A model generated the notes under the pieces. That model searched no databases and was not told where the DNA came from. It worked only from the letters and a program-made list of their open reading frames with translations. The translations under genes were made by a program, and so were the position numbers. Shown here in pieces: positions 29,070 to 62,536 of a DNA stretch of 64,000 nucleotides. Every line of letters starts with the position of its first letter. Within the stretch, counting starts at the first letter, position 1. Source of the DNA: Gammaproteobacteria bacterium UBA2675 (GTDB lineage Bacteria > Pseudomonadota > Gammaproteobacteria > Pseudomonadales > Pseudohongiellaceae); NCBI GenBank assembly GCA_002354805.1, contig DEMH01000015.1:116021-180020 (forward strand), written 5' to 3'.

Positions 29070-29105
29070 TGCAATTTTGCCAAACAGATACAAAGGAATA
29101 GCTTG

Positions 29106-35770: not shown

Positions 35771-37636
35771 ATGTTAAAACACAGTCGGCGCTTGCTCGCA
35801 TCGCTGTTCGCAGGCTCATTGCTGGCCAATGTCTCATTGGTGGCTGGTGTTCAGGCAGCGGAAAATCTGGATGGTGACAGTCTTTATACCCAGTACTGTG
35901 CCATGTGTCATACCGCCCCCCAGGATGACCGGACACCACCACGCGACTCACTGACAACCTATACCGCAAACAGCATTTTTCAAGCTTTGACTGAAGGCAT
36001 CATGCAACCGCAGGGAGCCGCGCTGACGGCCGAACAGCGAATTGCCCTGTCCGAATTTCTGGCGGGTGAACCGATGCGCGAGGAGAGCACTGAAATGTCC
36101 CTCGCATCTTCCCGCTGTGAACTGCCCATGCCGGAATTCGACCTGTCACTAGCCAGTAACTGGAATGGCTGGGGTAATGGTTTGAGCAATCCCCGCCACC
36201 AGGCTGCGACGGGCACCTCCATTAATGCCAGCAATATTGATCAGCTGGAGCTGGTCTGGGCATACGGGCTGGAAAACGCCTCCGTCGCGCGTGCTCAGCC
36301 GACTATCATTAATGATGTGATGATCCTGGGTAGCACCAGTGGTGAAGTGCGTGCCATGAATCTGGATACCGGTTGTGATTACTGGACGTATGAGGCGCCG
36401 CGCGAAGTACGCGCGGCGGTCACTATCGCGTTCTCCAGTACACACGATACCTGGCTGGCTGTGATCGCCGATGTCTCGAACCAGCTTCATGTCCTCGATG
36501 CGCGGACTGGTGAGCTGAAGTGGAGTGCAGAGGTTGATCCGCATCCCTACGCTGTGAGCACAGGCTCGCCGGTTGTGTATGACAACAAAATATTTGTGCC
36601 GGTGTCTTCGGCAGAAGTCAGTGCTGCCGGCCGACCTGACCATCACTGCTGTACTTTCCGTGGCAATGTGGCGGCGTTTGATCTCGATACGGGTATCAAG
36701 CTGTGGCATACCTATGTCATGGAGGAAGCGACACGGGTTGGCGAAAACAGTCTCGGCAACCCTTTCTATGCACCCTCGGGCGCGCCTATCTGGCAGGCTC
36801 CGAGCATTGATCCGGAGCGCCGCATCGTCTATGCGGGTACCGGACAGAACTACAGTCGCCCGGCCAGCAACAGCAGTGACTCTGTGATTGCCTTTAACAT
36901 GGACAGTGGTGATATCGAATGGATCCATCAGACGACACCCGACGATGCTTTCACCATGGCCTGTGCGCTGGGGCGAGAGCATCCCAACTGCCCGGATGCT
37001 GGTCCGGATGTCGACATCGGTGCGCCCATCGTGACAACCACCCTGTCCAACGGGCAGGATATTGTAGTCGCCGGCACCAAGGGTGCGGTCGTGGTCGGAC
37101 TGGATCCGGATAACAATGGCGAATTGCTGTGGTCAACACGCGTTGGCCGTGGCGGAGCCCTGGGTGGCATCCACTGGGGCATGAGTTTTGATGGTGATGT
37201 GCTGTATGTGCCGGTTTCTGATCGCGGAGGCCTGACCAACAACGGTGTCACACCGATGCCAGGTCTGCACGCTGTGGACATGAAAACTGGTGAAGTGCTC
37301 TGGTACGCACCGGCACCCGAGCGCTGCCAGGAAGGGCAGCAGGGCTGCATGGAGGCCTATTCTGGCCCGGTTACCAGCGGTGACGATGTTGTGATTGCCA
37401 GTTCACTGAATGGTCATCTGTTTGCGCACGATGCGCAGACCGGTGAGCTGGTCTGGGAATTCAACACGGTTCAGGACTATCAGACCATCAATAATGTGGA
37501 GACACGCGGTGGTTCCATCGATGCCACCGGTCCAGTCCTGTCTGGCGAATACATGGTAGTGAGTTCCGGTTACGCAACATTCAGCCAGATGCCCGGCAAT
37601 GCGATTCTGGTGTTCAAGCTGCGATCTGAACAATAA
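35771..37636 (+). CDS. periplasmic dehydrogenase with an N-terminal cytochrome c domain and a PQQ-type beta-propeller (polyvinyl-alcohol-dehydrogenase-like architecture)
   Basis: Signal peptide; CAMCH heme motif at about residue 43; repeated W-containing propeller blades (GELKWSAEV, GIKLWHTYV, GELLWSTRV, GEVLWYAP, GELVWEFN). Confidence 0.75.
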   Translation: MLKHSRRLLASLFAGSLLANVSLVAGVQAAENLDGDSLYTQYCAMCHTAPQDDRTPPRDSLTTYTANSIFQALTEGIMQPQGAALTAEQRIALSEFLAGEPMREESTEMSLASSRCELPMPEFDLSLASNWNGWGNGLSNPRHQAATGTSINASNIDQLELVWAYGLENASVARAQPTIINDVMILGSTSGEVRAMNLDTGCDYWTYEAPREVRAAVTIAFSSTHDTWLAVIADVSNQLHVLDARTGELKWSAEVDPHPYAVSTGSPVVYDNKIFVPVSSAEVSAAGRPDHHCCTFRGNVAAFDLDTGIKLWHTYVMEEATRVGENSLGNPFYAPSGAPIWQAPSIDPERRIVYAGTGQNYSRPASNSSDSVIAFNMDSGDIEWIHQTTPDDAFTMACALGREHPNCPDAGPDVDIGAPIVTTTLSNGQDIVVAGTKGAVVVGLDPDNNGELLWSTRVGRGGALGGIHWGMSFDGDVLYVPVSDRGGLTNNGVTPMPGLHAVDMKTGEVLWYAPAPERCQEGQQGCMEAYSGPVTSGDDVVIASSLNGHLFAHDAQTGELVWEFNTVQDYQTINNVETRGGSIDATGPVLSGEYMVVSSGYATFSQMPGNAILVFKLRSEQ

Positions 37637-37679: not shown

Positions 37680-39854
37680 ATGAACAAACAAACACACTTG
37701 GGTCTGGTGGCGGCTGCCGCCTTGCTGTTGGCAGCCTGTGGTCCTGCAGAGCAGACTGCGCCCGCGCAAACGCAAAGTGCACCGGTGGACGTGCCATCCT
37801 ATCCGGCCTATCAGGCGTCCGTGACTACTGAACGACTGGTTAACGCTGATAACGAACCCGGCCAGTGGATGTCCACTGGACGCACATACTGGGAGCAACG
37901 CTACTCACCGCTGGATCAGATCAACGAAGACACTGTCGCGGATCTGGGGCTGGTGTGGGCGGCAGATCTCGATACCAGCCGAGGTCAGGAAGCAACACCC
38001 ATCATGGTGGATGGTGCTCTCTACGTCACCACCGCCTGGAGTATGGTGAAAGCCTATGATGCCCGCACAGGCGAGCTGCTCTGGGAGTTTGATCCGGAAG
38101 TGGATCGAGCGCGAGGCGTTGACGCCTGTTGTGACGTGGTCAATCGTGGCGTTGCAGTGTGGGATGGCAAAGTCTTTTTCGGCGCGCTGGATGGTCGACT
38201 GATTGCGCTTGACGCCGACACCGGCGAACAGGTGTGGAGCGTGGTAACCACGGATCAGAGCCAGCCCTATACCATCACCGGCGCGCCGCGCATCATTGAT
38301 GGCAAGGTCATTATCGGCAATGGCGGTGGTGAATACGGCGTACGTGGTTACATCACCGCCTATGATGCCAACAATGGCGACGAAATGTGGCGCTTCTTCA
38401 CGGTACCGGGCAATCCTGAGGATGGATTTGAACAGCCGGAACTGGAATGGGCGGCTGATACCTGGACCGGTGAGTGGTGGGTCATGGGTGGCGGTGGCAC
38501 CGTCTGGGACTCCATGGCCTACGATCCCGATTCAAACCTGCTCTACATCGGTGTGGGCAACGGTTCTCCCTGGAACCAGTCACTGCGCAGCCCCGGCGGC
38601 GGTGATAACCTGTTCCTGACCTCAATTGTGGCGGTCAATCCTGATGACGGCAGTTACGTCTGGCACTATCAGACCGTACCTGGCGAGACCTGGGACTATA
38701 CGGCTACCCAGCAGATCATCGTAGCTGACCTGAATATCGGGGGTGAAACACGTCGGGTTGTGATGCAGGCGCCCAAAAATGGTTTCTTCTATGTCCTGGA
38801 TGCTTTGACGGGACGTCTGCTGTCTGCCGAGAACTTTGTACCGGTCACCTGGGCCAGCCATATTGACCTGGAAACCGGCCGACCCGTCGAAATTCCTGAG
38901 GCGCGCTACAACGAAACAGGTGTGCCAGTCATTGTGTCGCCCGGAGCGCTGGGTGGACACAACTGGTATCCCATGTCATTCAGCCAGAAAACCAATCTGG
39001 TTTATCTGCCAGCAACCGAAAATTATATGGGTTACGTTGCCCAGCCCGAATTCGAGAGATCAGAGCGCGGCTGGAACACTGGTACCGACATGGCTGAAGG
39101 CGCACGTCTGGTAGCAGCGGCCGGCGACGCCGCGCCGCAGCGCAGTGCCTACCTGCTGGCCTGGGATCCGGTAGCGCAGCGCGAGGTGTGGCGTCAGCCG
39201 CAGCTGGTGCCGACTGCAGCAGCCGGTGTGATGTCCACTGCCGGCGGCCTGGTATTCCAGGGCAATGCGGCTGGCGAATTTGTTGCCTATCGCGATACCG
39301 ATGGTGAGCGCCTGTGGTCGCATATCACGCAATCCCACACCGTTGCCGCGCCGATCAGCTACATGCTGGATGGCACGCAGTATGTTGCGGTAGTGACAGG
39401 TTCACGCGCCTTGCCACAGGTTGGACCGGGGGCGATTGGATCTACCACGCGTGAATCCAGCAACAACTCCCGTGTGCTGGTCTACGCACTGTCCGGCGAC
39501 CACCAGTTGCCGACAGAAATCGCGGTAGCGGAAGAGCAGGAGCTGAATCCTCCTGCGCTGGTTGCCAACAATGAGATGCTGGCTCAGGGCGAGCAGACTT
39601 ACGGTCGCTTCTGTAGCGTCTGTCACGGTAACAATGCGGCCAGTGATGGCGCCGGCGTGTTCCCGGATCTGCGTTACTCCGATCGTCTACATGACCTTGA
39701 GGAGTGGGATGCTGTAGTGCTGGAAGGTGAACTGGCTGATGGCGGCATGGTCTCATTCGCCGGCCAGCTGGAAGCGTCGGACTCTGCCGCTATCCGGCAA
39801 TATGTCATTTCCCGTGCGATTGCGCTGTCAGATGAGCTGCGCTCACAACAGTGA
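37680..39854 (+). CDS. PQQ-dependent quinohemoprotein alcohol dehydrogenase (type II, C-terminal cytochrome c domain), predicted lipoprotein
   Basis: Lipobox LLLAAC; vicinal Cys pair DACCDVVNRG; blades GELLWEFDP and GEQVWSV; C-terminal CSVCHG heme motif. Confidence 0.9.
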   Translation: MNKQTHLGLVAAAALLLAACGPAEQTAPAQTQSAPVDVPSYPAYQASVTTERLVNADNEPGQWMSTGRTYWEQRYSPLDQINEDTVADLGLVWAADLDTSRGQEATPIMVDGALYVTTAWSMVKAYDARTGELLWEFDPEVDRARGVDACCDVVNRGVAVWDGKVFFGALDGRLIALDADTGEQVWSVVTTDQSQPYTITGAPRIIDGKVIIGNGGGEYGVRGYITAYDANNGDEMWRFFTVPGNPEDGFEQPELEWAADTWTGEWWVMGGGGTVWDSMAYDPDSNLLYIGVGNGSPWNQSLRSPGGGDNLFLTSIVAVNPDDGSYVWHYQTVPGETWDYTATQQIIVADLNIGGETRRVVMQAPKNGFFYVLDALTGRLLSAENFVPVTWASHIDLETGRPVEIPEARYNETGVPVIVSPGALGGHNWYPMSFSQKTNLVYLPATENYMGYVAQPEFERSERGWNTGTDMAEGARLVAAAGDAAPQRSAYLLAWDPVAQREVWRQPQLVPTAAAGVMSTAGGLVFQGNAAGEFVAYRDTDGERLWSHITQSHTVAAPISYMLDGTQYVAVVTGSRALPQVGPGAIGSTTRESSNNSRVLVYALSGDHQLPTEIAVAEEQELNPPALVANNEMLAQGEQTYGRFCSVCHGNNAASDGAGVFPDLRYSDRLHDLEEWDAVVLEGELADGGMVSFAGQLEASDSAAIRQYVISRAIALSDELRSQQ

Positions 39855-40351
39855 GCACTACTTACTATAGTGTCTATGAATCTCCGGTCGGCAGTCTGCT
39901 GCTGGCCGGAGATGGAAGTGCACTGAGGCTGATTGGTTTTCCCTCTGGCAAGGCTGCGCGTCAGCCTCAACCTGATTGGATGCGTCGTAATGAAGCATTC
40001 AAACAGGTAAAGCAACAGCTTCAGGCTTACTTCGCCGGTGAGTTAAAATCTTTTGATCTGAATCTGGCGCCGCAGGGCACTGATTTTCAACGCCAGGTCT
40101 GGCAGGCCCTGCAACAGATTCCCTATGGCGCCACAGCCAGTTACGGTGACATCGCCAGGCAGATAGGCAGGCCTGATGCCAGCCGTGCAGTTGGTGCAGC
40201 CAATGGGCAGAATCCCATCCCGATAGTCATTCCCTGCCACCGCGTTATTGGCAGTGACGGCTCATTAACCGGGTTTGGGGGAGGGCTGGCCTGCAAGCGG
40301 CAGTTGCTGGTGCTCGAACAGCAGCACTCGCCGTTCGATTTATTCGGTTAA
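39851..40351 (+). CDS. ogt: methylated-DNA--protein-cysteine methyltransferase
   Basis: Active-site motif IPCHRVIG; GTGA start/stop overlap with the upstream dehydrogenase gene. Confidence 0.9.
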   Translation: MSTTYYSVYESPVGSLLLAGDGSALRLIGFPSGKAARQPQPDWMRRNEAFKQVKQQLQAYFAGELKSFDLNLAPQGTDFQRQVWQALQQIPYGATASYGDIARQIGRPDASRAVGAANGQNPIPIVIPCHRVIGSDGSLTGFGGGLACKRQLLVLEQQHSPFDLFG

Positions 40352-40369: not shown

Positions 40370-41347
40370 TTAGCTTCTACTGGCGTGTGTCTGGTTGCGT
40401 CCTGCGTTTTTGGCCAGATAAAGCGCCTGGTCGCTCTTTTCTATCCACGCCTGATAGGCGTTCATTTCAGCGTCGAGCGCGCTGATGCCCAGACTTACTG
40501 TTACACGCAGGCATTTTTCTTCCCATTCTATTACTGTATCGGCGAGTTTTTTACGCAGACGCTCCGCGTAGATCAATGCCTGGTCGATATCGGTTTCGGG
40601 CAGAATGATGCCAAATTCTTCGCCACCGTAGCGACCAGCGGTATCTGTAGAGCGCCGAAAGCGTTTAAGCAGTCGGCCCACCACCCTCAGAACCTCATCA
40701 CCGGCCTGATGACCATGTGTGTCATTGAATTCCTTGAAGTGGTCGATATCAAACATGATCAGACAGGCAGGCCGCTGGCTGCGCTGGCAACGCATGAATT
40801 CCTGCTCAAGGCATTCTTCCCAATAGCCACGGTTAAAGACACCTGTCAGCTTGTCGGTACGACTGACACGCTTGAGCGTGTCATTGGCGGCCTCCAGCTC
40901 CTTTTTCCGGGTGGCTATTTCAGTCACGTCATAGATCAGCAGACAGACCTGGGAAACCGTGTTATTGAGTCCATGAAGCGGGATCAGCGTGACGTTCTGG
41001 TACATCTTGCCTGAGTGACCTGTCAGCGGACGTGTGCTCTTGAAATCAAATAGTCTGGGATGTTCCTCCCAGGTGCAGAACGCCCGGCTCTGAAGCTTGA
41101 AAACAGAGTCAATTTTCCGGGTCAGCCAGCTGCGCGGCAGGTCAGGAAACAGCTCGAACAGATTGCGTTCACGGGCGTCACTGATGGGGATGCCGCTGTG
41201 GTTCTCCATGAAGCTGTTCCACAACTGTACGTTGTAATTCTCGTCCAGCAGGATCAGGCCGTTGTCGAGTGTCTGCAACAGTTGCATCAGCAGATGCAGG
41301 CGTTGAGTGCTGTCAGGGGATTCGGATGACATTGTCTGAAGTGGCAT
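40370..41347 (-). CDS. PAS-domain diguanylate cyclase (GGDEF)
   Basis: N-terminal PAS domain (LDNGLILLDENYNVQLWNSFMENHSG); GGDEF domain with DIDHFKEFNDTHGHQAGD, I-site RSTD and active-site GGEEF. Confidence 0.9.
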   Translation of the reverse strand: MPLQTMSSESPDSTQRLHLLMQLLQTLDNGLILLDENYNVQLWNSFMENHSGIPISDARERNLFELFPDLPRSWLTRKIDSVFKLQSRAFCTWEEHPRLFDFKSTRPLTGHSGKMYQNVTLIPLHGLNNTVSQVCLLIYDVTEIATRKKELEAANDTLKRVSRTDKLTGVFNRGYWEECLEQEFMRCQRSQRPACLIMFDIDHFKEFNDTHGHQAGDEVLRVVGRLLKRFRRSTDTAGRYGGEEFGIILPETDIDQALIYAERLRKKLADTVIEWEEKCLRVTVSLGISALDAEMNAYQAWIEKSDQALYLAKNAGRNQTHASRS

Positions 41348-41359
41348 GCAGGTGTCTCA

Positions 41360-42370
41360 TCAATCGGACGCACTGATCAGCTGAACGCGACTGGTCAGTG
41401 CGGGTATGGAATCGGAAGTCAGCAACAACAGCAGGTGACACTCCAGAACCGGATGCATCATCTGATAGGTGATGGTGACGGCGAGCACATCCTGTTCGTT
41501 GTGCTCACTGTCCAGTAATTCAGCGCATTGCAGATTGTGGCCCAGCACAGCAGGGTAGCTATGGTTGAAATCCAGATCGAGCTGCTGGCTGATGCCTTTC
41601 AGACAGGCCCCGACCAGTAGTTCAGACAGATCAGTCAGAATACCGGCTTCGCTGTCAGCCTGCTCGGGCAAATCACTGGCAACCAGTGTGCGCAGTTTGC
41701 TCATCTGGTCGGTCCGCATCAGCAGCACACCCTCGCCAGCGATGCCATTGCCACTGAAGCCGTGGGATACCGCACTCATGCCGGTTCCATCTGCATAGCT
41801 GAGGTGTCGCGGCAATGTTTTATAGGAACACTCCAGTACATCGGGGACCGGCAGCCCTATAAAGGTGTCGAGCAGGTCACTTAGGTGGCTGCCAGCCTGT
41901 CCCATGGCGACGTTGATGACTTCGCGGAAAGCCTCCTTGAAGTCAGGTGATTGCAGCGTGTCACCGTCAACAATGTGAGCGTGGGCGTCTTCATTGGCAG
42001 CGGCATCATAGATGCCATAGCGCTCGAGCAGCTCCTGAATCTGATCAGCGGTCACTGGCTTTTTGATGAAGTCCAGTGCCCCCTTGGACATGACGCGCCG
42101 TCGAGCCTCTGCCTGTATATCGCCTGAAACCACCAGTACCAGTGTTGGCAGGTCTTCCTGGCGAATGATTTCCAGCACTTCGTAGCCGTTCATTACCGGC
42201 ATGTTGAGATCCAGAAACAGCAGGTCGCCCTTGCCCTGGCGGATCATGTCGATGGCTTCCTGGCCGTTCTCGGCAAAGGTGATTTCTACATCCCAGTGTT
42301 CCGGGAGTGATCGTGCCATCTGGCGTCGTGCCAGTCTGGAGTCGTCACATATTAGTACTGGTAAGGTCAT
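41360..42370 (-). CDS. response regulator: CheY-like receiver fused to a CheC/CheX-like domain
   Basis: Receiver: VLICDDS...DLLFLDLNMPVMNG...VVSGD...DFIKKP. The C-terminal ~190 aa contains E-x3-E-x2-N-x22-P (EAFREVINVAMGQAGSHLSDLLDTFIGLPVP), which resembles the CheC phosphatase motif. Confidence 0.75.
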   Translation of the reverse strand: MTLPVLICDDSRLARRQMARSLPEHWDVEITFAENGQEAIDMIRQGKGDLLFLDLNMPVMNGYEVLEIIRQEDLPTLVLVVSGDIQAEARRRVMSKGALDFIKKPVTADQIQELLERYGIYDAAANEDAHAHIVDGDTLQSPDFKEAFREVINVAMGQAGSHLSDLLDTFIGLPVPDVLECSYKTLPRHLSYADGTGMSAVSHGFSGNGIAGEGVLLMRTDQMSKLRTLVASDLPEQADSEAGILTDLSELLVGACLKGISQQLDLDFNHSYPAVLGHNLQCAELLDSEHNEQDVLAVTITYQMMHPVLECHLLLLLTSDSIPALTSRVQLISASD

Positions 42371-45971: not shown

Positions 45972-47393
45972 TCAGCTTGCAGCAATCGGCACAACGCCCT
46001 CAATTAATGTGTTGGCCAGTTGGAGCAGCGTCTGATCGCCTCCCCAGGCGGCACTGAACATGACCCCGATGGGCAAACCCTGCTGACTCTGCCCCAGCGG
46101 CAGTGAGATGCTGGGCTGGCCGGTGCCGTTGAACAGCGCAGTAAACGGGCTGTAAGCGGCATAGCGGCTGGCGTATTCGCGCACGTCCTGGCTGTTCATG
46201 TCCAGCCAGCCCAGAGGGGCTGTCGGGCGGGCCAGCACCGGAGACAGTACAAGGTCATAGTGCTGGTGAAAGTCTGCTATTTGCCGTTCTATCGTTTTTA
46301 GTGTGTCGACTGCCTGCAGGTACTCACGGGCCGTGGCCTTGATGCCGCGCGCGACCATTCGTACCACTGACTCGGACAACTGTGCGTCTTTTAGTTCCAG
46401 CTGTTTTTGCTCCAGCAGGGGTGCGATGATCTGGGCTGCATGAATGTTGATAAGTACTGCCATGGCTCTGCCTGCAGCTGCGTAGTCCACGGGCGGCGCG
46501 GCGAGCGCAAGCTGATGTCCCATGGCTTCGCATCTACTGGCGGTTTCTTCTACGACCGCCTGACATTCCTGGTCAATATCGCCACCACCCGGGTGTTCCA
46601 GCTGCACCGCGATAGTCAGCTGGCCTGGAGCCCGCTGGCAGGCATCAGTAAAGCTTGAAGGCTGTGGTGGCAGGGCAAACAGGTCCGGCCTGGACAGCTT
46701 CTGTATATCCAGAAACGCGGCGCTGTCGCGCACCGAACGGCAGACAACATGGCTGACGCTCATGCCACTCCAGGCGTTACCCACATCAGGTTCAGTTACG
46801 GTCAGTCCGCGACTTGGTTTTAGACCAATCAGCCCGCAGCAGGCGGCTGGCACGCGTATGGAACCACCACCATCGCTGGCATCGGCAGCGGGCACAATAC
46901 CGGCAGCGACGGCACTGGCAGAGCCGCCGCTGCTGCCGCCGGCACTGAACTCCAGGTTATGCGGATTGCGGCACAGATCAAACAGTGACCACTCTGTGGT
47001 AATGGTCAGGCAAAGCTCTGGCGTGTTGCTGCTGGCAAAAGGAAGCAGCCCGGCATCGAAGTAGCGTTGTGCAATCCGGCTGTGCTGACGGGCGACATTG
47101 TCCCGCATCAATGGCGTGCTGCGTGTGTACGGCCAGTCCTTGACGGCATTGACCTCTTTGATCACAAATGGAACACCCGCCAGTGGCCCAGTACCTGGCT
47201 CGTGATCCTGTCGCCTGGCAAGTTCCATTGCCGATGTGTCTGCACGATGTACCAAAGCGTTCAGGTCAGGGTTGACGGCGTCTGCCCTCGCACAGGCAAT
47301 GGTCAACATCTCCTCGGCAGTAACTTCCCTTTTGCGGCACAACTGAGCCAGTCCTGTTGCGTCGTATTGGAGATACTCGTCAATCGTCAGCAT
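45972..47393 (-). CDS. amidase (amidase-signature family)
   Basis: AS signature GGSSGGSASAVAAG plus DGGGSIRVPAACCGL. Confidence 0.9.
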   Translation of the reverse strand: MLTIDEYLQYDATGLAQLCRKREVTAEEMLTIACARADAVNPDLNALVHRADTSAMELARRQDHEPGTGPLAGVPFVIKEVNAVKDWPYTRSTPLMRDNVARQHSRIAQRYFDAGLLPFASSNTPELCLTITTEWSLFDLCRNPHNLEFSAGGSSGGSASAVAAGIVPAADASDGGGSIRVPAACCGLIGLKPSRGLTVTEPDVGNAWSGMSVSHVVCRSVRDSAAFLDIQKLSRPDLFALPPQPSSFTDACQRAPGQLTIAVQLEHPGGGDIDQECQAVVEETASRCEAMGHQLALAAPPVDYAAAGRAMAVLINIHAAQIIAPLLEQKQLELKDAQLSESVVRMVARGIKATAREYLQAVDTLKTIERQIADFHQHYDLVLSPVLARPTAPLGWLDMNSQDVREYASRYAAYSPFTALFNGTGQPSISLPLGQSQQGLPIGVMFSAAWGGDQTLLQLANTLIEGVVPIAAS

Positions 47394-47436: not shown

Positions 47437-49170
47437 TCAATCAAGCACAGTGACATTGCGCCCCGCCGATTTGGCTTCAGTGAGCATGTCGTCGAGCTGT
47501 CGTAACAAAACGGTAATATCTTTGTCAGCCGTCATGGTAATGATGGCAACGCTTACGGTTAGCTTCATGGACTGTTCTTCATCGTCCAGACTGATATCAG
47601 TAAGTGTCTGGTGTAAACGATCCGCCACCGCTCCTGCCTGATGCTTGTCTGTTGCCGGCAGTAATATAAGAAACTCCCGGTCGCCCCAGCGGCAGACAAC
47701 ATCGTACTGGCGAAAAACGCTGTTACAGATCCCTGCGAATCTGACCAGTACCTGATCACCTATTTCGTGGCCATATTGCTCATTGATATGCCGGAAATGA
47801 TCGATGTTGGCCAGCAGCAGACAGGCAGTGCGGTCGCCGCGTTGAATCCGGGCGTGTTCCTGTCGCAATCGTTCAGAAAAACTGTGCCGATTGTTCAGTC
47901 CGGTCAAAGAATCAGTGGTTTGCAGCTTTTCCAGTCTGCTCTTCAGGTGCTGAACTTCTTGCTGCAGTGCCTCAACCTGTTCGGCCTCCGTATCGGAGTT
48001 AAGGGTATTGACCGACGGCAATTCTGCCGACCAGCGATGCATGACGGAATCGATGTCGGTGAAAGTGGGGCTTGCGCCGCAGCTGGAGGGGGTGCGTGAA
48101 AAGCGCGGTGCCGGCGCAGGTTGATATTTGCCTGATTGGCCAGCCAGGCTGACAAAAGTCTCGCGTGCTCTGTTGTGTGGGTGCTCTGGCGCTTCCGACA
48201 TGCTGAGCACAGGTGCAAAGCAGGCGTCGGTTCCTTCCAGTAATTCACACCAGTGGTCACGGGAACGCATTGCAAATAGATGTTTGAGCTGTTCCTGCAT
48301 GCGTTGCCAGTTGTGCTGATTCATTTGCTCAAACAACAGGGTGTTTTCCTTGTTTGCTTTGACTTCGCAACGCAGCAGCAGCTCCTCATAGAACTGAGGT
48401 TCAATCGGGGCAATACTGATAAATTTGCCATCGGCACATTTATAGCACTGATAGAAAGGTGCACCGCCATCGAGCAGATTTTTCCCTGGTGGCTGTGTCC
48501 AGCGTCCGGAGTTATACAGCGCATAGGGCAGTGACATCAACAGCGCGGTACCGTCACTCATTGCGGCATCTATCACCTGGCCCCTGGCTGATTTTGTGCG
48601 TTCATGCAGGGCAGCAAGCACACCCGACATCAGAAGCATGCCGCCACCACCATAGTCGCCAACAAGGTTGAGTGGTGGGCGCGGTGGGGTCTCTCCATCT
48701 GCCATGGCATGCAGGGCGCCGCTCAAGGCGATGTAATTAAGATCATGGCCAGCCGCTGCAGCCAGAGGACCCTGCTGGCCCCAGCCTGTCATGCGTCCAT
48801 AGATGAGCCGCGGATTGTCCGCCATACACTGCTCCGGCCCCAGGCCAAGCCGCTCCATCACGCCAGGGCGGAATCCCTCCAGTAATACATCCGCCTGTGC
48901 AATGAGTCGTCGTGCCTGCTCAAGATCGCCAGTTTTTTTAAGGTTGAGTGTGAGATTCTGCCGACCACGATCCATGGCATTGAGCGAGCGTGAGTCTATG
49001 CTGTTTGAGCGCTCGACACGAACAACGTCGGCACCCATGTCGGCCAGCATCATTGCAGTAAACGGAACCGGGCCGATGGCCGCCATCTCCACAACTTTCA
49101 GACCCTGCAGCGGGCCGCCTGAAGTTTCCTGCGACTGCTGGATGCTGTTGTTGTCTGATTTTGGTGTCAT
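47437..49170 (-). CDS. fusion protein: family III CoA-transferase / alpha-methylacyl-CoA racemase-like domain + coiled coil + degenerate GGDEF domain
   Basis: N-terminal ~400 aa: LKVVEMAAIGPVPFTAMMLADMGADVVRVER, GHDLNYIALSG, LVGDYGGGG, LLDGGAPFYQCYKCADGKFISIAPIEPQFY. Linker: EAEQVEALQQEVQHLKSRLEKLQ. C-terminal 159 aa (47440..47916): DSLTGLNNR, NIDHFRHINEQYGHEIGD, RQYD-VVCRW-GDREF. I preferred ATG 49170 to the track's TTG at 49218. Confidence 0.85.
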   Translation of the reverse strand: MTPKSDNNSIQQSQETSGGPLQGLKVVEMAAIGPVPFTAMMLADMGADVVRVERSNSIDSRSLNAMDRGRQNLTLNLKKTGDLEQARRLIAQADVLLEGFRPGVMERLGLGPEQCMADNPRLIYGRMTGWGQQGPLAAAAGHDLNYIALSGALHAMADGETPPRPPLNLVGDYGGGGMLLMSGVLAALHERTKSARGQVIDAAMSDGTALLMSLPYALYNSGRWTQPPGKNLLDGGAPFYQCYKCADGKFISIAPIEPQFYEELLLRCEVKANKENTLLFEQMNQHNWQRMQEQLKHLFAMRSRDHWCELLEGTDACFAPVLSMSEAPEHPHNRARETFVSLAGQSGKYQPAPAPRFSRTPSSCGASPTFTDIDSVMHRWSAELPSVNTLNSDTEAEQVEALQQEVQHLKSRLEKLQTTDSLTGLNNRHSFSERLRQEHARIQRGDRTACLLLANIDHFRHINEQYGHEIGDQVLVRFAGICNSVFRQYDVVCRWGDREFLILLPATDKHQAGAVADRLHQTLTDISLDDEEQSMKLTVSVAIITMTADKDITVLLRQLDDMLTEAKSAGRNVTVLD

Positions 49171-49285: not shown

Positions 49286-50050
49286 ATGGAGATTCAGGAA
49301 AAAACAGCATTTGTGACAGGCGCTGCCTCAGGCCTTGGGCTTGCCGCTACCCGGGCGCTGGTCGCCGGTGGTGCGAAAGTGCTGATGTTTGACCGAGATG
49401 AAGAACGGCTGCTTGAAGCTGCAGCGAGCGTGGCAGGGGAGGTGGCCTGGCAGGCTGGCGACATTACAGACGAGCAGAGTGTGCAGCGTGCCGTTGATTC
49501 TGCAATCCAACAGTTTGGCGGGCTGCATATCAATATCAATTGTGCTGGTATCGGCGGTGCTGCCAAAACCGTGGGCCGTGATGGTCCCATGCCGCTTGAT
49601 ATGTTTCGCCGAATTGTCGATGTAAATCTGATTGGCACGTTTAACGTGCTGCGTCTGTGTGCAGCTGCCATGTGTCAGCGAGAGCTTGAGGGTGATGCAG
49701 ACCGGGGAGTGATTATCAATGTTGCCTCGGTGGCAGCCTTCGATGGGCAGCGCGGGCAGGCTGCGTACAGCGCCGCCAAGGGCGGACTGGTCGGCATGAC
49801 GCTGCCAATAGCCAGAGATCTGGCTCGCGACCAGATACGGATCATGACAGTCGCCCCCGGTGTCTTTTCAACACCGATGATGCAGGCGGCTCCTGAACAG
49901 GTTCGAGACGCCCTGGTGCAGTCTATTCAGTATCCCAAACGGATGGGCTTGCCGGAAGAATTTGCCGACCTGGCGCTATCCATTGTCAGAAATCGCTATC
50001 TGAACGGCGAGGTGATCCGCCTGGATGGCGGTGTGAGAATGCCGCCCTGA
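49286..50050 (+). CDS. SDR family oxidoreductase, 3-hydroxyacyl-CoA dehydrogenase type-2-like
   Basis: TGAASGLG cofactor motif and a YSAAK catalytic motif. ATG 49286 has a GGAGG SD; the track start is a TTG at 49262. Confidence 0.85.
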   Translation: MEIQEKTAFVTGAASGLGLAATRALVAGGAKVLMFDRDEERLLEAAASVAGEVAWQAGDITDEQSVQRAVDSAIQQFGGLHININCAGIGGAAKTVGRDGPMPLDMFRRIVDVNLIGTFNVLRLCAAAMCQRELEGDADRGVIINVASVAAFDGQRGQAAYSAAKGGLVGMTLPIARDLARDQIRIMTVAPGVFSTPMMQAAPEQVRDALVQSIQYPKRMGLPEEFADLALSIVRNRYLNGEVIRLDGGVRMPP

Positions 50051-50054
50051 AGCT

Positions 50055-51224
50055 TCAGTCTTTGGGGCGCAGCGACAATCCGCTGTAATCGAAATCGGTG
50101 TTTTCCTTTTTGGTCTGAGTGCTGTTGTCCTGCCGGCTGACACCAGCAGCTGTACCCAGCTGCCCGCCACCGGCCAGTTCAAGTCGCAGCCGCAGATTGT
50201 TCTTGGAATCGGCATTGCGCAGTGCTTCGTCTATGGAAATTCTGCCTTCGCGGACCAGGCCAAACAGGGCTGAGTCAAATGTGCGCATACCCTGTTCTTC
50301 CGATTTCTCCATAACCTCTTTGATCTCGTCAACTTTCCCCTGACGAATAAGGTCGGTCACCCTGGGTGTGCCGAGCAGGATTTCGAATGCTGCCGCCCTG
50401 CGACCATCAGTCGAAGGAATAAGCCGTTGCGAGATCAGTCCGCGAAGATTCAGCGACAGGTCCATAAACAGCTGGCGATGACGCTCTTCCGGGAAAAAAT
50501 TGATAATTCTGTCCAGAGCCTGATTGGCATTGTTGGCATGTAATGTTGCCAGACAGAGATGGCCGGTCTCGGCAAACGCGATCGCATGTTCCATGGTGTC
50601 CTGGCCGCGGATTTCACCGATCAGGATCACGTCGGGTGCCTGGCGCAGGGTGTTTTTCAGGGCATTCTGATAATTGAGAGTATCTATGCCTACTTCGCGC
50701 TGACTGATCAAAGACTTTTGGTGCGGATAGATGAATTCTATGGGGTCTTCCACTGTGACGATGTGGCCACTGTCATGGGCATTACGATGATTGATCAAAG
50801 CCGCCAGTGAAGTTGACTTGCCGGTGCCCGTGCCGCCAACAAACAGGATCAGACCGCGTTTTTCCATGACCAGCTGTTTAAGAATGTCAGGGTGTCCCAA
50901 TTGCTGCGGCGTGGGAATTTCAGTCTTGATATGCCTGAAAACAAGTGCAGTCTGTCCGCGCTGGCGATAGACATTGACACGAAAACGGCCAACGTCCGGT
51001 TCCAGCCATGCCAGATTCATTTCGGACTCGCGCCGGAACTGCTCGGCCTGTTCGCTCGACATGATGTGGCTTGCCAGCGCTTCAGTGTCGCGTTCGCTGA
51101 CGGGCGAGTCTGATATCGCACTGACCTTGCCGAAAACCTTGATGCTGGCCGGCGCACCGACGGTCACAAAAAGATCCGAGGCTTCTTTGGCTACCATCGT
51201 GCTCAACAGGTTCTGAAGGTCCAT
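50055..51224 (-). CDS. pilU: PilT/PilU-family type IV pilus retraction ATPase (PilU-like)
   Basis: Walker A GGTGTGKST; VEDPIEF; RQAPDVILIGEIR; ETGHLCLATLHANNANQALDRI. ATG 51224 has an AGGAGA SD; the track start at 51308 overlaps pyrB. Confidence 0.85.
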   Translation of the reverse strand: MDLQNLLSTMVAKEASDLFVTVGAPASIKVFGKVSAISDSPVSERDTEALASHIMSSEQAEQFRRESEMNLAWLEPDVGRFRVNVYRQRGQTALVFRHIKTEIPTPQQLGHPDILKQLVMEKRGLILFVGGTGTGKSTSLAALINHRNAHDSGHIVTVEDPIEFIYPHQKSLISQREVGIDTLNYQNALKNTLRQAPDVILIGEIRGQDTMEHAIAFAETGHLCLATLHANNANQALDRIINFFPEERHRQLFMDLSLNLRGLISQRLIPSTDGRRAAAFEILLGTPRVTDLIRQGKVDEIKEVMEKSEEQGMRTFDSALFGLVREGRISIDEALRNADSKNNLRLRLELAGGGQLGTAAGVSRQDNSTQTKKENTDFDYSGLSLRPKD

Positions 51225-51243
51225 GGGTGTCTCTCCTGACGGC

Positions 51244-52257
51244 TCAGAAGCGGCGCTCTGTATACCAGTTGACGTCGCGAGCGTGTTTATCAACCTGATC
51301 TGCAACATCCAGCGTCAGCGCGAACAATGCCATACGTACCAGCACTCCATTGTCTGTCTGGCGAAAAATGGCCAGATTGGGGTGCTGGTTCAGATCATTA
51401 TCAAGTTCATTGGCATCGTCACGAGAATCACGGGGCAGTGGATGCATGATGACCGTGTTGGGCTGACAGTAGCGTGTGTAGATTGCCTGGTTAAGGCGGA
51501 AGCGTCCCCGGTAGAGGTCGGCCTCCATCTTGCTGGCGAAACGTTCTTCCTGGATCCGCGTCAGGTACACGATGTCATTGGCGGTCAGGCCTGACTCCAT
51601 GTCTTCGGTTTCCACAACTTCGTGACCACGCTGACGGAGTTCTTCAACGATCTCCTCCGGCATGCGCAATTCCCTGGGTGAAATCAGGGTGAAGCGAATA
51701 TTGCTGTACAGGCTGACCAGCTGGGACAGTGAGTGGACCGTGCGGCCGTGCTTAAGGTCGCCGACCATGGCCAGATGCATGCCGTCGATACCCTGCTGGC
51801 GTGACATCAGTTCGCGCTTGATGGTGTAAAGGTCCAGCAGGGCCTGACTGGGGTGTTCATTGGGGCCATCGCCGGCGTTCAGTACCGGGACCCGGCTGGC
51901 CCTTGAAAACTCAGCGACCGAGCCGGCCTGGGGGTGGCGCATGACGATGATGTCGCTGTAGCCGCTCATTACACGTCCAGTGTCGTAGAGAGACTCGCCT
52001 TTGGTCAGCGAGCTGGCTTTGATATCGGTTGTCTCTCGCACTTCACCGCCCAGCAGATTGAAGGCGCAACCGAAGCTGACGCGCGTGCGGGTACTCGGTT
52101 CGAAAAACATATTGCCGAGAATGGCGCCATCAAGCACTTTGGTTACCCGTTCACGGTGCGCGTACGGGCGCATGGCGCTGGCTACGTCGAAGATGCGCTC
52201 GACATCGCTGCGTTCGAACTGGGACACACTGATGATGTGGGCTCCTGGAAAATGCAT
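51244..52257 (-). CDS. pyrB: aspartate carbamoyltransferase catalytic chain
   Basis: FFEPSTRTR, HPSQALLDL, GDLKHGRTVHS and HPLPR motifs. Confidence 0.85.
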   Translation of the reverse strand: MHFPGAHIISVSQFERSDVERIFDVASAMRPYAHRERVTKVLDGAILGNMFFEPSTRTRVSFGCAFNLLGGEVRETTDIKASSLTKGESLYDTGRVMSGYSDIIVMRHPQAGSVAEFSRASRVPVLNAGDGPNEHPSQALLDLYTIKRELMSRQQGIDGMHLAMVGDLKHGRTVHSLSQLVSLYSNIRFTLISPRELRMPEEIVEELRQRGHEVVETEDMESGLTANDIVYLTRIQEERFASKMEADLYRGRFRLNQAIYTRYCQPNTVIMHPLPRDSRDDANELDNDLNQHPNLAIFRQTDNGVLVRMALFALTLDVADQVDKHARDVNWYTERRF

Positions 52258-61080: not shown

Positions 61081-62508
61081 TCAATCCCAGCTCAGTGCAC
61101 CACCGGTCTGGTATTCGATGACACGTGTTTCGAAGAAGTTCTTCTCTTTGCGCAGATCCATGATTTCCGACATCCATGGGAAGGGGTTCTTCACACCCTT
61201 GAACTGCTCGGGCAGTCCAATCTGGACCAGGCGACGATTGGCAATGAACTGCAGATACTCTTCCATCATGACAGCGTTCATACCCAATACACCGCGTGGC
61301 ATGGTGTCACGTGCGTATTCAATTTCCAGCTGGGTAGCCTGCAGTATCATGCGAGTTGCATCACGCTTCATGGCATCGTCCCACAATTGCGGGTTTTCGA
61401 TCTTGATCTGGTTGATCATGTCGATGCCGAAGTTCAGGTGCATGGACTCGTCACGCAGAATGTACTGGAACTGCTCGGAAGTACCCGTCATCTTGTTGCG
61501 GCGACCCATGGACAGAATCTGGGTAAATCCGCAATAAAAGAAAATACCTTCCAGACAGCAATAGAAGGCAATCAGGTTCTTCAAAAGTGCCTTGTCGGTT
61601 TCTGGTGTACCCGTCGTAAAGTTGGGATCACTCAATTCCTGGGTGTACTTCAGACCCCAGGAAGCCTTTTTGGCGACCGAAGGGATCTCATGGTACATGT
61701 TGAAGATTTCGCCTTCGTCCATACCCAGTGACTCAATGCAGTACTGGTAGGCATGGGTGTGAATGGCTTCCTCAAATGCCTGACGCAGAATGTACTGACG
61801 GCACTCCGGGTTGGTGATCAGGCGGTAGATGGCCAGCACCAGGTTGTTGGCAACCAGCGAATCGGCGGTGGAGAAGAAACCCAGGTTACGCTTGACGATC
61901 AGCCTTTCGTCCGGCGTCAGCCCATTGGCGCTTTTCCAGAGCGCGATATCCGCGTTCATGTTGATTTCCTGCGGCATCCAGTGATTGGCGCAGCCATCAA
62001 GGTATTTTTGCCAGGCCCAGTCATACTTGAACGGCACCAGCTGGTTCAGGTCAGCGCGGCAGTTGATCATGCGCTTGTCGTCAACGGATACGCGTTCCGT
62101 CCACTCTTCAAGCTCCTGCTGACCGGCGCTGATGTCCAGCTTTTCCAGCTCGGCGTGAGCCTGTGCCAGAACGCGCTGGTTATTGGCTTCTGCCTTGGCA
62201 TCTGAAGATGCGTTGGCAGGCAGTTCCGTCTGGGTTGGCTCTGGCGCCAGGGCCTCGTCCATGGCCTGCATGGTACGGGCGGCTGCCAGCGCTTCATTGT
62301 AGCTGGACGCCGTCTGTTCGGAGACACGTGGTGCCACTGATGAGGCGACACTGTGGTGGCTGGCCTGCGCCGCAGCGGTTGCTGCCGCCTGACTGGCAGC
62401 TGCGCTTGCCGGCTGTGAGGTGGCGCGGGCGGGTTGGGCTGGTTTTGCCGCCGCCTTGTCGTCGTCCAACGAAGTCGGATCGTCGTAGAACTCATCCCAA
62501 GAAATCAT
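61081..62508 (-). CDS. nrdB: class Ia ribonucleotide reductase beta subunit with a long low-complexity N-terminal extension
   Basis: Conserved core [35 protein letters not shown]...EEAIHTHAY...[10 protein letters not shown]...RDESMH. ATG 62508 has an AGGGGG SD. The track start at 62619 would overlap nrdA. Confidence 0.9.
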
Positions 62509-62536
62509 GTTAACCCCCTGATTTTGAAATTTATTA

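What the first reader, a model, noticed from the sequence alone, without database searches (positions are those of the whole stretch)
47437..49170. Racemase-like family III CoA-transferase fused to a degenerate GGDEF domain that keeps its c-di-GMP I-site
One uninterrupted ORF joins two modules that normally have nothing to do with each other.

- **N-terminal domain (~400 aa):** alpha-methylacyl-CoA-racemase / CaiB-BaiF-type. It has the family's conserved His and Asp contexts (GHDLNY, VGDYGGGG), so it looks catalytically competent.
- **Linker (~25 aa):** heptad-like, EAEQVEALQQEVQHLKSRLEKLQ.
- **C-terminal domain (159 aa, 47440..47916):** GGDEF. The signature is GDREF (47671..47685) instead of GG(D/E)EF. 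The second Gly and the metal-binding acidic residue are lost, so cyclase activity is unlikely. The allosteric I-site is intact with canonical spacing: RQYD-x5-GDREF, compared with RSTD-x5-GGEEF in the neighbouring bona fide cyclase at 40370..41347.

This pattern is what is expected of a c-di-GMP receptor domain. It suggests direct second-messenger control of a branched-chain or methyl-acyl-CoA racemase/transferase.

The context is coherent. An amidase lies 43 nt downstream on the same strand, a 3-hydroxyacyl-CoA-type SDR is divergent, and the window is rich in acyl-CoA enzymes. I do not know of a characterised CoA-transferase-III/GGDEF protein.
Basis: partly seen in the sequence, partly recalled or inferred. 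Interest (0 to 1): 0.72.

Follow-up and report, generated by a model that had tools for sequence, protein, structure and literature searches.

The report
Racemase fused to a dead GGDEF domain
In one lineage of the marine bacterium Pseudohongiella, a deletion joined a lipid-metabolism enzyme (2-methylacyl-CoA racemase) to the catalytically dead remnant of the neighbouring signalling gene; the remnant may let the messenger c-di-GMP control the enzyme, but this is untested.

Summary
One uninterrupted 577-aa ORF (47437..49170, minus strand) has three parts:
- a full-length MCR-type family III CoA-transferase domain with all four MCR catalytic residues;
- a three-heptad coiled-coil stalk;
- a GGDEF domain reading RQYD-x5-GDREF.

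It is not an assembly artefact. The same ORF occurs in six assemblies (four alleles) and eight protein variants, all from Pseudohongiella or marine MAGs. Both domains are under equally strong purifying selection (omega about 0.1).

New here is the origin. In P. spirulinae and a relative, a stand-alone MCR gene overlaps a separate, canonical GAF-GGDEF cyclase gene, followed by the same amidase. The fused module is 49% identical to that cyclase's stalk and GGDEF, against 39% or less for the best hits of the homolog search outside the clade. An in-frame deletion therefore removed the MCR stop and the GAF sensor.

The catalytic centre then degenerated (D327N, K332R, D336E, G369D, E370R in PleD numbering). 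The I-site and the base and phosphate contacts were kept.

The c-di-GMP-receptor reading is plausible and has precedent, but it is unproven. I-site retention alone is not statistically significant. The architecture is rare and undescribed, and annotated only as 'CoA transferase'. Interest is moderate.

The parts
47437..49170 (-). Whole fused CDS: 577 aa plus TGA stop, MCR-stalk-GGDEF
   Evidence: The intact ORF is present in L001, L002, L003, L005 and L006.
49120..49170 (-). N-terminal 17-aa extension (MTPKSDNNSIQQSQETS), absent from stand-alone orthologs
   Evidence: alignment A1
48028..49119 (-). MCR-type family III CoA-transferase domain (aa 18-381)
   Evidence: Pfam PF02515 E 6e-79. 1X74 E 5e-116 over aa 18-381. 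AF2 pLDDT is mostly 75-96, with a 55-67 dip at aa 131-170.
48742..48747 (-). H142-D143, equivalent to MCR H126/D127 (catalytic base and its partner)
48655..48657 (-). D172, equivalent to MCR D156 (catalytic acid/base; the family III catalytic Asp position)
48400..48402 (-). E257, equivalent to MCR E241
47983..48027 (-). Fusion junction peptide (aa 382-396, AELPSVNTLNSDTEA). It has no counterpart in MCR or in GAF-GGDEF and is the least constrained segment.
   Evidence: omega is 0.22-0.57 for aa 364-417. AF2 pLDDT is below 50 at aa 385-391.
47914..47982 (-). Coiled-coil stalk (aa 397-419), inherited from the GAF-GGDEF parent
   Evidence: 6 of 7 a/d positions are I/L/M/V. It aligns with the P. 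spirulinae stalk, aa 166-188. AF2 predicts a helix at 392-422.
47440..47913 (-). Degenerate GGDEF domain (aa 420-577)
   Evidence: Pfam PF00990 E 1.4e-37. PDB 7e6g (putative GGDEF domain protein) E 6.6e-29. omega 0.07-0.13.
47806..47808 (-). N455 at the PleD D327 (Mg ligand) position. It is Asp in 100% of the parent family.
47701..47712 (-). I-site RQYD (aa 487-490), equivalent to PleD R359-D362
   Evidence: Invariant in all 10 variants and fragments.
47671..47685 (-). Degenerate signature GDREF (aa 496-500), replacing GGEEF
47617..47619 (-). R518, equivalent to PleD R390 (second I-site arginine)
45972..47393 (-). Amidase-signature amidase, 43 nt downstream, probably co-transcribed. It is the ancestral operon partner of MCR.
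   Evidence: MCR-amidase adjacency holds in all Pseudohongiella loci.
49286..50050 (+). Divergent type-II 3-hydroxyacyl-CoA dehydrogenase-like SDR (HSD10-like)
40370..42370 (-). Response regulator plus canonical PAS-GGDEF cyclase (RSTD-x5-GGEEF), a conserved syntenic pair and a possible local c-di-GMP source

Best explanation
**What it is (shown).**
- The gene is a lineage-specific fusion. The ancestral Pseudohongiella arrangement is a tight MCR-amidase operon.
- In some lineages a member of a widespread family of ~350-aa GAF-GGDEF diguanylate cyclases sits between the two genes. It overlaps the 3' end of MCR by 17-23 nt, in a different reading frame.
- In the window's lineage a frame-restoring deletion removed the last few MCR codons, the stop codon and the whole GAF sensor (about 160 codons).
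- The cyclase's own coiled-coil stalk and GGDEF domain were thereby grafted onto the C-terminus of the racemase.

**State of the two domains (inferred from sequence).**
- The racemase half keeps every catalytic residue and diverges at the normal rate, so it is most likely still a 2-methylacyl-CoA racemase.
- It probably works in 2-methyl-branched acyl-CoA beta-oxidation together with the divergent HSD10-like dehydrogenase.
- The GGDEF half has lost both Mg ligands, the second glycine and the transition-state lysine, so it almost certainly no longer makes c-di-GMP.

**How it most likely works (hypothesis).**
- The dead GGDEF domain, held as a pair by the stalk on the obligate MCR dimer, still binds intercalated c-di-GMP at its intact RxxD/Arg I-site.
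- Binding cross-links or re-orients the two GGDEF domains. Through the stalk this changes racemase activity, oligomeric state or partner binding.

**Step confidences.** Fusion by deletion 0.9; racemase active 0.8; cyclase dead 0.85; c-di-GMP binding at the I-site about 0.4; binding regulates the enzyme about 0.25.
For: **Origin.**
- Synteny extends over 13 genes with P. spirulinae, where MCR (368 aa) and GAF-GGDEF (346 aa) are separate and overlap by 17 nt.
- A second un-fused example is L015, with a 23-nt overlap.
- Fused aa 397-577 are 49% identical and 70% similar to GAF-GGDEF aa 166-346, with no gaps (E 5e-58). The best non-clade proteins in the word-indexed search of 5.8 billion sequences reach 39% or less.
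- The separate cyclase is canonical: DLDHFK, RQSD-x5-GGEEF.

**Reality.** Six assemblies, four alleles and eight 577-aa variants carry the fused ORF.

**Selection.**
- omega is 0.07-0.17 for the MCR domain and 0.07-0.13 for the GGDEF domain.
- A binomial test on the GGDEF domain gives p = 5e-10.

**Racemase.** 1X74 matches at E 5e-116 and all four catalytic residues are present. MCR diverges no faster than the amidase.

**Dead A-site and kept ligand contacts.**
- Of 50 columns at least 90% conserved in the parent family, 10 are lost. These include D327N, K332R, D336E and G369D, and E370R is lost as well.
- I-site R359, D362, R366 and R390, and N335, D344, K442 and R446, are kept. They are invariant across the variants.
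- GDREF is unique among the 150 nearest GGDEF relatives.

**Precedent.** PopA, PelD, CdgA and SgmT are degenerate GGDEF proteins that bind c-di-GMP (PMC3974145); PopA does so through RxxD (PMC12564702). c-di-GMP activates the metabolic enzyme GlgX.
Against: - There is no binding or activity data.
- I-site retention (4 of 4) is not significant, given that 80% of invariant columns are retained overall (p about 0.41).
- The fusion is a by-product of a deletion. A sister lineage lost the same GGDEF gene outright (scar in L012), and most Pseudohongiella manage without it.
- The parent family is not linked to MCR outside the genus.
- Kept A-site base and phosphate contacts allow a different ligand.
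- The AF2 model of the GGDEF part was poor (pLDDT about 50). It gives no structural support for domain coupling.
- All fused alleles are at least 89% identical in nucleotides, so conservation of single residues within the clade carries little weight.
Confidence: 0.45

Rival explanations
1. **Structural passenger, a frozen accident.** The deletion created a fusion in which the stalk and GGDEF merely have to stay folded and dimeric. That avoids destabilising the racemase and keeps translation of the downstream amidase intact. The domain binds no ligand of consequence and there is no signalling role.
For: - The fusion originated by deletion between overlapping genes.
- The same gene was deleted entirely in L012 and is absent from most of the genus.
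- There is no MCR linkage elsewhere.
- Retention of ligand residues is not above the background retention of invariant columns.
Against: - omega for the GGDEF domain (0.07-0.13) is as low as for the enzyme domain and much lower than for the adjacent junction and linker (0.22-0.57).
- A pure passenger would be expected to show intermediate constraint.
- It would also be easy to lose through a nonsense mutation, yet all eight variants are full length.
Confidence: 0.25
2. **A-site nucleotide sensor.** The degenerate active site, rather than the I-site, binds GTP or another guanine nucleotide without metal. R498 and N455 replace the Mg-binding carboxylates. This would report GTP or energy status to the racemase, by analogy with the GTP-binding GEDEF domain of Caulobacter PdeA.
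For: - Guanine contacts N463 and D472 (PleD N335, D344) and phosphate contacts K567 and R571 (K442, R446) are all retained.
- The two lost metal ligands were replaced by a neutral and a cationic side chain rather than by random residues.
Against: - G369D puts a carboxylate in the phosphate-binding hairpin.
- K332R, D336E and Y439T also alter the pocket.
- The PdeA analogy is from my own recollection and was not tested here.
- There is no EAL output domain.
Confidence: 0.12
3. **Protein-interaction module.** The dead GGDEF with its stalk heterodimerises with active cyclases, for example the conserved PAS-GGDEF 6 kb away. It either titrates them as a dominant negative or recruits the racemase into a c-di-GMP signalling complex. 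The MCR half would act as an acyl-CoA-sensing input.
For: - GGDEF catalysis needs dimers, and the stalk is retained with a clean heptad pattern.
- A canonical RR and PAS-GGDEF pair is conserved in synteny.
- The literature notes complexes between cyclases and phosphodiesterases, and speculates on a role for degenerate domains in them (PMC3974145).
Against: - The fused module is only about 33-40% identical to the PAS-GGDEF GGDEF domain.
- MCR catalytic residues are fully conserved, which fits an enzyme rather than a sensor.
- There is no direct evidence.
Confidence: 0.1
4. **Still an active, unorthodox diguanylate cyclase** whose activity is gated by acyl-CoA binding to the MCR domain.
For: - Some non-canonical motifs (AGDEF, SGDEF) retain activity (PMC3974145).
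- The domain order, N-terminal 'input' and C-terminal GGDEF, mimics sensor cyclases.
Against: - The known active variants change only the first motif position.
- Here the second Gly, both Mg ligands (D327N, E370R) and K332 are changed. All are 86-100% conserved in the parent family.
Confidence: 0.03

Closest known systems
M. tuberculosis alpha-methylacyl-CoA racemase MCR (PDB 1X74) and human AMACR; family III CoA-transferase fold
   Same: - Full-length homology (E 5e-116) covering aa 18-381 against residues 2-359 of 360.
- The His/Asp catalytic pair and the assisting Asp and Glu are conserved.
- The genomic company is beta-oxidation enzymes, here an HSD10-like SDR.
   Different: - It carries a 17-aa N-terminal extension and a roughly 195-aa C-terminal stalk plus GGDEF.
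- None of the 119 other best full-length relatives listed has such an appendage.
GAF-GGDEF 'sensor domain-containing diguanylate cyclase' family (e.g. the P. spirulinae protein P0287; Halomonas, Oceanimonas, Zobellella, Pseudazoarcus orthologs)
   Same: - The stalk and GGDEF are homologous (49% identical, no gaps) and lie at the same chromosomal position, between MCR and the amidase.
- The I-site is identical in type (RQxD-x5-G).
   Different: - The GAF sensor has been deleted and replaced by an enzyme.
- The A-site is degenerate (GDREF, D327N, K332R).
- 10 of 50 family-invariant columns are lost.
Degenerate-GGDEF c-di-GMP receptors (PopA, PelD, SgmT, CdgA)
   Same: A catalytically degenerate A-site combined with an intact RxxD I-site five residues upstream. 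This is the feature through which PopA binds c-di-GMP (PMC3974145, PMC12564702).
   Different: - In those proteins the partners are receiver, transmembrane/GAF or histidine-kinase modules that control proteolysis, polysaccharide secretion or signalling.
- Here the partner is a soluble lipid-metabolism enzyme.
- Binding is untested.
Stalk-containing cyclases WspR, SiaD and DgcR
   Same: - A parallel coiled-coil stalk leads directly into the DxLTGL motif of GGDEF.
- 7e6g is the best PDB hit and NCBIfam's SiaD model is the best-scoring GGDEF family.
   Different: - Those proteins are active cyclases regulated by phosphorylation or by partner proteins.
- Scores here are far below the equivalog cut-offs (161 against 290 bits).
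GlgX of Streptomyces venezuelae (a metabolic enzyme activated by c-di-GMP)
   Same: It is a precedent for direct c-di-GMP control of a catabolic enzyme (PMC12564702).
   Different: GlgX binds the messenger in its own C-terminal region, not through a grafted GGDEF domain, and acts in an unrelated pathway.

Membership tests
Family III CoA-transferase / MCR (AMACR) subfamily | PF02515 domain above the gathering threshold, with full-length similarity to characterised racemases | tested here: met
   266 bits against a cut-off of 23.3. 1X74 E 5e-116 and the M. tuberculosis Far racemase 2G04 E 4e-99, far better than true CoA-transferases (YfdE 3e-33, Frc about 1e-28).
Family III CoA-transferase / MCR (AMACR) subfamily | Catalytic His126/Asp156 pair with assisting Asp127/Glu241 (MCR numbering) | tested here: met
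   H142, D172, D143 and E257 align to these positions. They are invariant in stand-alone orthologs.
Family III CoA-transferase / MCR (AMACR) subfamily | Interlocked homodimer; racemisation of 2-methylacyl-CoA esters | not testable with these tools
   Needs enzyme assays and a structure or a multimer model.
Active diguanylate cyclase (GGDEF, PF00990) | GGDEF domain fold / profile match | tested here: met
   129 bits against a cut-off of 23.8, covering profile positions 2-160 of 161. 40 PDB cyclase hits.
Active diguanylate cyclase (GGDEF, PF00990) | GG(D/E)EF signature and the two Mg-binding carboxylates (PleD D327, E370) | tested here: not met
   The signature is GDREF, with N455 at D327 and R498 at E370. 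K332R and D336E are also changed.
Degenerate-GGDEF c-di-GMP receptor (PopA/PelD/SgmT type) | Inactive A-site together with RxxD five residues upstream of the signature | tested here: met
   RQYD-VVCRW-GDREF.
Degenerate-GGDEF c-di-GMP receptor (PopA/PelD/SgmT type) | Additional I-site arginine (PleD R390 equivalent) | tested here: met
   R518 is present; the position is 99% Arg in the parent family.
Degenerate-GGDEF c-di-GMP receptor (PopA/PelD/SgmT type) | Measured c-di-GMP binding that depends on RxxD | not testable with these tools
   A biochemical assay is required.
GAF-GGDEF sensor cyclase family (parent) | N-terminal GAF domain | tested here: not met
   There is no GAF match. The alignment starts at parent aa 166, after the GAF domain.
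GAF-GGDEF sensor cyclase family (parent) | Orthologous stalk and GGDEF at the syntenic position | tested here: met
   49% identity over 181 aa with no gaps, between MCR and the amidase.
GTP-sensing degenerate GGDEF (PdeA/CC3396 type) | Guanine and phosphate contacts retained, coupled to an EAL output domain | tested here: inconclusive
   N463, D472, K567 and R571 are retained, but there is no EAL domain. Binding is untested.

The most novel reading that the evidence does not exclude
- The grafted stalk and dead GGDEF act as a true second-messenger switch. c-di-GMP at the I-site, or a guanine nucleotide at the remodelled metal-free A-site, would allosterically turn a 2-methylacyl-CoA racemase on or off through the coiled coil.
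- That would be the first case of c-di-GMP directly gating an enzyme of branched-chain lipid beta-oxidation.
- It would also be a natural example of a new allosteric enzyme created in one step by deleting the sensor domain of a neighbouring signalling gene.
Probability: 0.25. Interest if true: 0.7.

Novelty: new variant of a known kind. Interest (0 to 1): 0.45.

Why it matters
**If the domain is a working receptor.**
- c-di-GMP signalling would extend from its usual outputs (motility, matrix, cell cycle) to direct control of lipid catabolism in an abundant marine gammaproteobacterial genus.
- It would also provide a compact natural template (enzyme, coiled coil, I-site domain) for engineering c-di-GMP-responsive enzymes.

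**Independently of function.**
- The locus is an unusually clean, datable example of how new multidomain proteins arise.
- The un-fused state (two overlapping genes), the fused state and the fully deleted state with its scar all survive in related lineages.
- The subsequent decay of the catalytic site, while other conserved positions are retained, can be read residue by residue.

**Practically.**
- These proteins are annotated only as 'CoA transferase' or 'alpha-methylacyl-CoA racemase'.
- The GGDEF domain is missing from these product names.

Tried and rejected
1. **Assembly or frameshift artefact.** Rejected: the identical architecture occurs in six assemblies and eight protein variants.
2. 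**Wider phyletic spread of the architecture.**
   - The full-length homolog search found one fused cluster among the top 120.
   - An exhaustive scan of 1.84 billion representatives with the MCR tail, linker and GGDEF found only a Pseudohongiella fragment.
   - A local phmmer search of the 150 nearest GGDEF relatives found no other CoA-transferase domain.
   - This does not exclude independent, very distant fusions. A census by domain architecture could not be run.
3. **The other GGDEF gene near the locus in P. acticola (L009) as the source.** Rejected: only 34% identical.
4. **Accelerated evolution of the MCR domain after fusion.** My first identity matrix suggested it. That was an artefact of counting the N-terminal extension as mismatches, and it disappears on gap-free columns.
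5. **AlphaFold2 model of the whole protein.** The first job was lost. The second gave a good MCR domain and stalk helix but a poor GGDEF (pLDDT about 50, shallow alignment). I did not use it for domain-coupling arguments, run no fold search, and left the second prediction job unused.
6. **Remnants of the GGDEF gene in other MCR-amidase spacers.** Found in L012 only. None was found in L010, L013 or L014.
7. **Promoter and terminator scan.** Counts were not above the shuffled expectation. I used it only to note that no terminator lies between the fused gene and the amidase.
8. **Literature searches** for GGDEF with CoA-transferase, with methylacyl-CoA racemase, and with Pseudohongiella returned nothing relevant.
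Full report

Yes.
- A single ORF runs on the minus strand from 49218 (first TTG) to the TGA at 47437-47439. The ATG at 49170, preceded by GGTGAG, gives the 577-aa product that all relatives share.
- Pfam places CoA_transf_3 on aa 21-363 (E 6e-79) and GGDEF on aa 418-572 (E 1.4e-37).
- NCBIfam agrees at domain level. No equivalog model reaches its cut-off.
- The amidase starts 43 nt downstream, behind an RBS and with no terminator between.
- The divergent SDR is a close homolog of type-II 3-hydroxyacyl-CoA dehydrogenase/HSD10 (E 5e-71).
- The neighbouring PAS-GGDEF at 40370-41347 is canonical.
- 'Window rich in acyl-CoA enzymes' is only loosely true. Those genes lie 18-43 kb away.

**2. Is the fusion genuine?**

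- Searching genome and metagenome collections with the C-terminal 217 aa found four more loci: Pseudohongiella sp. O18, the MAG SAT35 and two metagenome contigs. A fifth came from the protein database. All carry the intact 577-aa ORF with RQYD and GDREF.
- They represent four alleles, 89-94% identical in nucleotides.
- The window's own protein sits in a 90% cluster of eight 577-aa variants. These come from Pseudohongiella isolates and marine MAGs and are annotated only as 'CoA transferase' or 'alpha-methylacyl-CoA racemase'.
- Nei-Gojobori omega values:

| Segment | omega |
|---|---|
| Racemase domain | 0.07-0.17 |
| GGDEF domain | 0.07-0.13 |
| Tail, junction and stalk (aa 364-417) | 0.22-0.57 |

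- For the GGDEF domain, the deficit of non-synonymous changes between the window and L001 has binomial p = 5e-10.
- The C-terminal domain is therefore not decaying.

**3. What are the two halves?**

*The N-terminal half.*
- It aligns end to end with M. tuberculosis MCR (1X74, E 5e-116) and the Far racemase (2G04, E 4e-99).
- This is far better than with genuine family III CoA-transferases (1e-22 to 1e-33).
- H142, D143, D172 and E257 sit at MCR H126, D127, D156 and E241.
- On gap-free columns it has diverged from other Pseudohongiella orthologs exactly as much as the amidase next door (62.9% against 62.5%). Nothing suggests a change of function.

*The C-terminal half.*
- It begins with three clean heptads (V399, L402, V406, L409, L413, L416) that run into the DxLTGL motif. 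This is the stalk arrangement of WspR- and SiaD-type cyclases. The best PDB hit is 7e6g and the best NCBIfam GGDEF model is SiaD.

**4. Where did the fusion come from?**

This is the main new result.
- The closest MCR relatives (65% identity or less) are all stand-alone proteins of about 365 aa.
- Their loci are syntenic with the window over 13 genes: ExoI, ATCase, PilT-like ATPase, (ACAD), SDR, then divergently MCR, amidase, pyrophosphatase, XdhC, MatE, response regulator, PAS-GGDEF.
- In most of them the amidase follows MCR directly or within about 50 nt. L010 and L012 have longer spacers (283 and 172 nt).
- In P. spirulinae (L008) and a relative (L015), a separate 346-aa GAF-GGDEF gene lies between the two. 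It overlaps the MCR stop by 17 and 23 nt, in another frame.
- Its stalk and GGDEF (aa 166-346) are 49% identical and 70% similar to fused aa 397-577, without a single gap (E 5e-58). Outside the fused clade, the best hits of the word-indexed search of 5.8 billion proteins reach 39% or less.
- That separate gene is canonical: DLDHFK, RQSD-x5-GGEEF.
- It belongs to a widespread, well-conserved family of ~350-aa GAF-GGDEF cyclases in Halomonas, Oceanimonas, Zobellella, Marinimicrobium and Pseudazoarcus (52-61% identical).
- Elsewhere that family sits in unrelated contexts, such as ROK kinase/PriA or chemoreceptors.
- The fusion is therefore derived. A frame-restoring deletion removed the end of MCR, its stop codon and the GAF domain, leaving a 15-residue junction peptide (aa 382-396).
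- A close relative of P. spirulinae (L012; 86-90% identical in flanking proteins) shows a different outcome for the same gene. Only the first ~45 codons remain (tblastn E 5e-8), and the sequence then jumps to the amidase.
- The fused clade is a deep, separate branch in both the MCR and the amidase trees. Whether the GGDEF insertion is ancestral with several losses, or moved between lineages, remains open.

**5. What happened to the GGDEF domain after the fusion?**

I compared it with 120 members of the parent family. Fifty columns of the stalk and GGDEF are at least 90% conserved there. The fused module keeps 40 and loses 10.

| Fate | Positions (PleD numbering unless stated) |
|---|---|
| Lost, catalytic centre | D327N (Mg ligand), K332R, D336E, G369D; also E370R (second Mg ligand, 86% Glu in the family) |
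| Lost, other GGDEF positions | R301H, A302S, Y439T, and a strand Gly to Ala (A542) |
| Lost, stalk | two positions (V399, Q417 in the fused protein) |
| Kept, base and phosphate contacts | N335, D344, K442, R446 |
| Kept, I-site | R359, D362, R366, R390 |

- PleD numbering was obtained from the gap-free correspondence with 1W25. The functional roles of these residues are from my knowledge of the PleD and WspR structural literature.
- GDREF is unique among the 150 nearest GGDEF relatives, which carry GGEEF (144 occurrences) or GGDEF (16).
- All the kept residues are invariant in the ten fused sequences available.
- The module has diverged much more from its P. spirulinae counterpart (49%) than the PAS-GGDEF neighbour has (70%) or MCR and the amidase have (62-64%). 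That fits a shift in constraints.

**6. How it most likely works**

- Shown: the architecture, its origin, its restriction to one lineage, and purifying selection on both halves.
- Inferred with good confidence: the racemase is active, and the cyclase is dead. Only first-position motif variants are known to retain activity (PMC3974145).
- Hypothesis: the stalk-paired dead GGDEF domains bind c-di-GMP at the I-site, as PopA does through its RxxD site and as PelD, SgmT and CdgA also bind it (PMC3974145, PMC12564702). Through the stalk they alter racemase activity, oligomerisation or partnerships.
- I put c-di-GMP binding at about 0.4 and enzymatic regulation at about 0.25.
- The argument has limits:
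  - Keeping four of four I-site residues has a chance probability of about 0.41, given the 80% background retention.
  - The A-site ligand contacts are kept as well.
  - The fusion is a deletion by-product.
  - Most of the genus lacks the gene.
- The rivals are a structural passenger (0.25), a metal-free A-site guanine-nucleotide sensor (0.12), a heterodimerising or scaffolding module (0.10) and a residual cyclase (0.03).

**7. Comparison with known systems and novelty**

- Each half belongs to a known family.
- The combination was not found in the literature.
- It was found in no sequence outside this Pseudohongiella clade. I could not run a domain-architecture census.
- It fails the defining tests of an active cyclase.
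- It meets the sequence-level tests of a degenerate-GGDEF receptor. The decisive feature, binding, is untestable here.
- I rate it a new variant of a known kind.
- Interest is moderate (0.45). The architecture is rare and undescribed, its evolutionary history is unusually legible, and the mechanism is plausible but unproven.
- The AF2 model (mean pLDDT 72.7) supports the MCR fold and a helix at 392-422. It was too poor in the GGDEF part to inform on coupling.

Noticed in passing
window 50050-50055 (between the SDR stop and the PilT-like ATPase stop); compare L008:5987-7135: The acyl-CoA dehydrogenase gene that follows the SDR in every other Pseudohongiella locus examined is missing in the window and in L002/L003. 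The SDR and the ATPase gene now abut within 5 nt. The clade with the fused racemase has therefore also lost the ACAD from this cluster.
   Followed up: partly
L012:6114-6285 (Logan SRR24908268_337173): The 172-nt MCR-amidase spacer of a close P. spirulinae relative keeps a scar of the first ~45 codons of the GAF-GGDEF gene (tblastn E 5e-8). The sequence then resumes at the amidase start. This is an independent deletion of about 975 nt in the same gene that was fused in the window's lineage.
   Followed up: yes
window 41360-42370 (-) and 40370-41347 (-): A response regulator has a receiver domain on aa 5-115 only, followed by about 220 aa with no Pfam match. A canonical PAS-GGDEF cyclase follows 13 nt downstream. 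The pair is conserved in synteny across the genus (69-70% identical to P. spirulinae).
   Followed up: partly
window 35771-37636 (+), 37680-39854 (+), 39851-40351 (+): A PQQ-dependent dehydrogenase gene (Pfam PQQ) is followed by a 724-aa ORF that, read by eye, looks like a second PQQ-type dehydrogenase with a C-terminal CSVCH haem-binding motif. A 166-aa gene that looks like a methylated-DNA methyltransferase (PCHRV motif; same position as the Methyltransf_1N/DNA_binding_1 gene in L008) overlaps the second gene's stop by 4 nt. Only the first gene was scanned against Pfam.
   Followed up: no
window 9898-12207 (-): A 769-aa protein has only an N-terminal OmpR/CadC-type winged-helix DNA-binding domain (Trans_reg_C, aa 61-132). 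The remaining ~640 aa have no Pfam match at E <= 1e-8. It lies next to a TonB-dependent receptor gene (7158-9695).
   Followed up: no
window 61081-62619 (-): The longest ORF for the ribonucleotide reductase small subunit is 512 aa, but the Pfam domain covers only aa 192-479. Either there is a ~190-aa N-terminal extension or the true start is internal.
   Followed up: no
window 30264-30992 (+): A 242-aa ORF directly after a KASIII-like gene (29103-30248) has no Pfam match at E <= 1e-8.
   Followed up: no
window 50055-51308 (-): The longest ORF of the PilT/PilU-like ATPase is 417 aa, but it aligns to the 373-aa P. spirulinae ortholog only from window 51224 downwards. The real start is probably internal, about 28 codons downstream of the first start codon.
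   Followed up: partly
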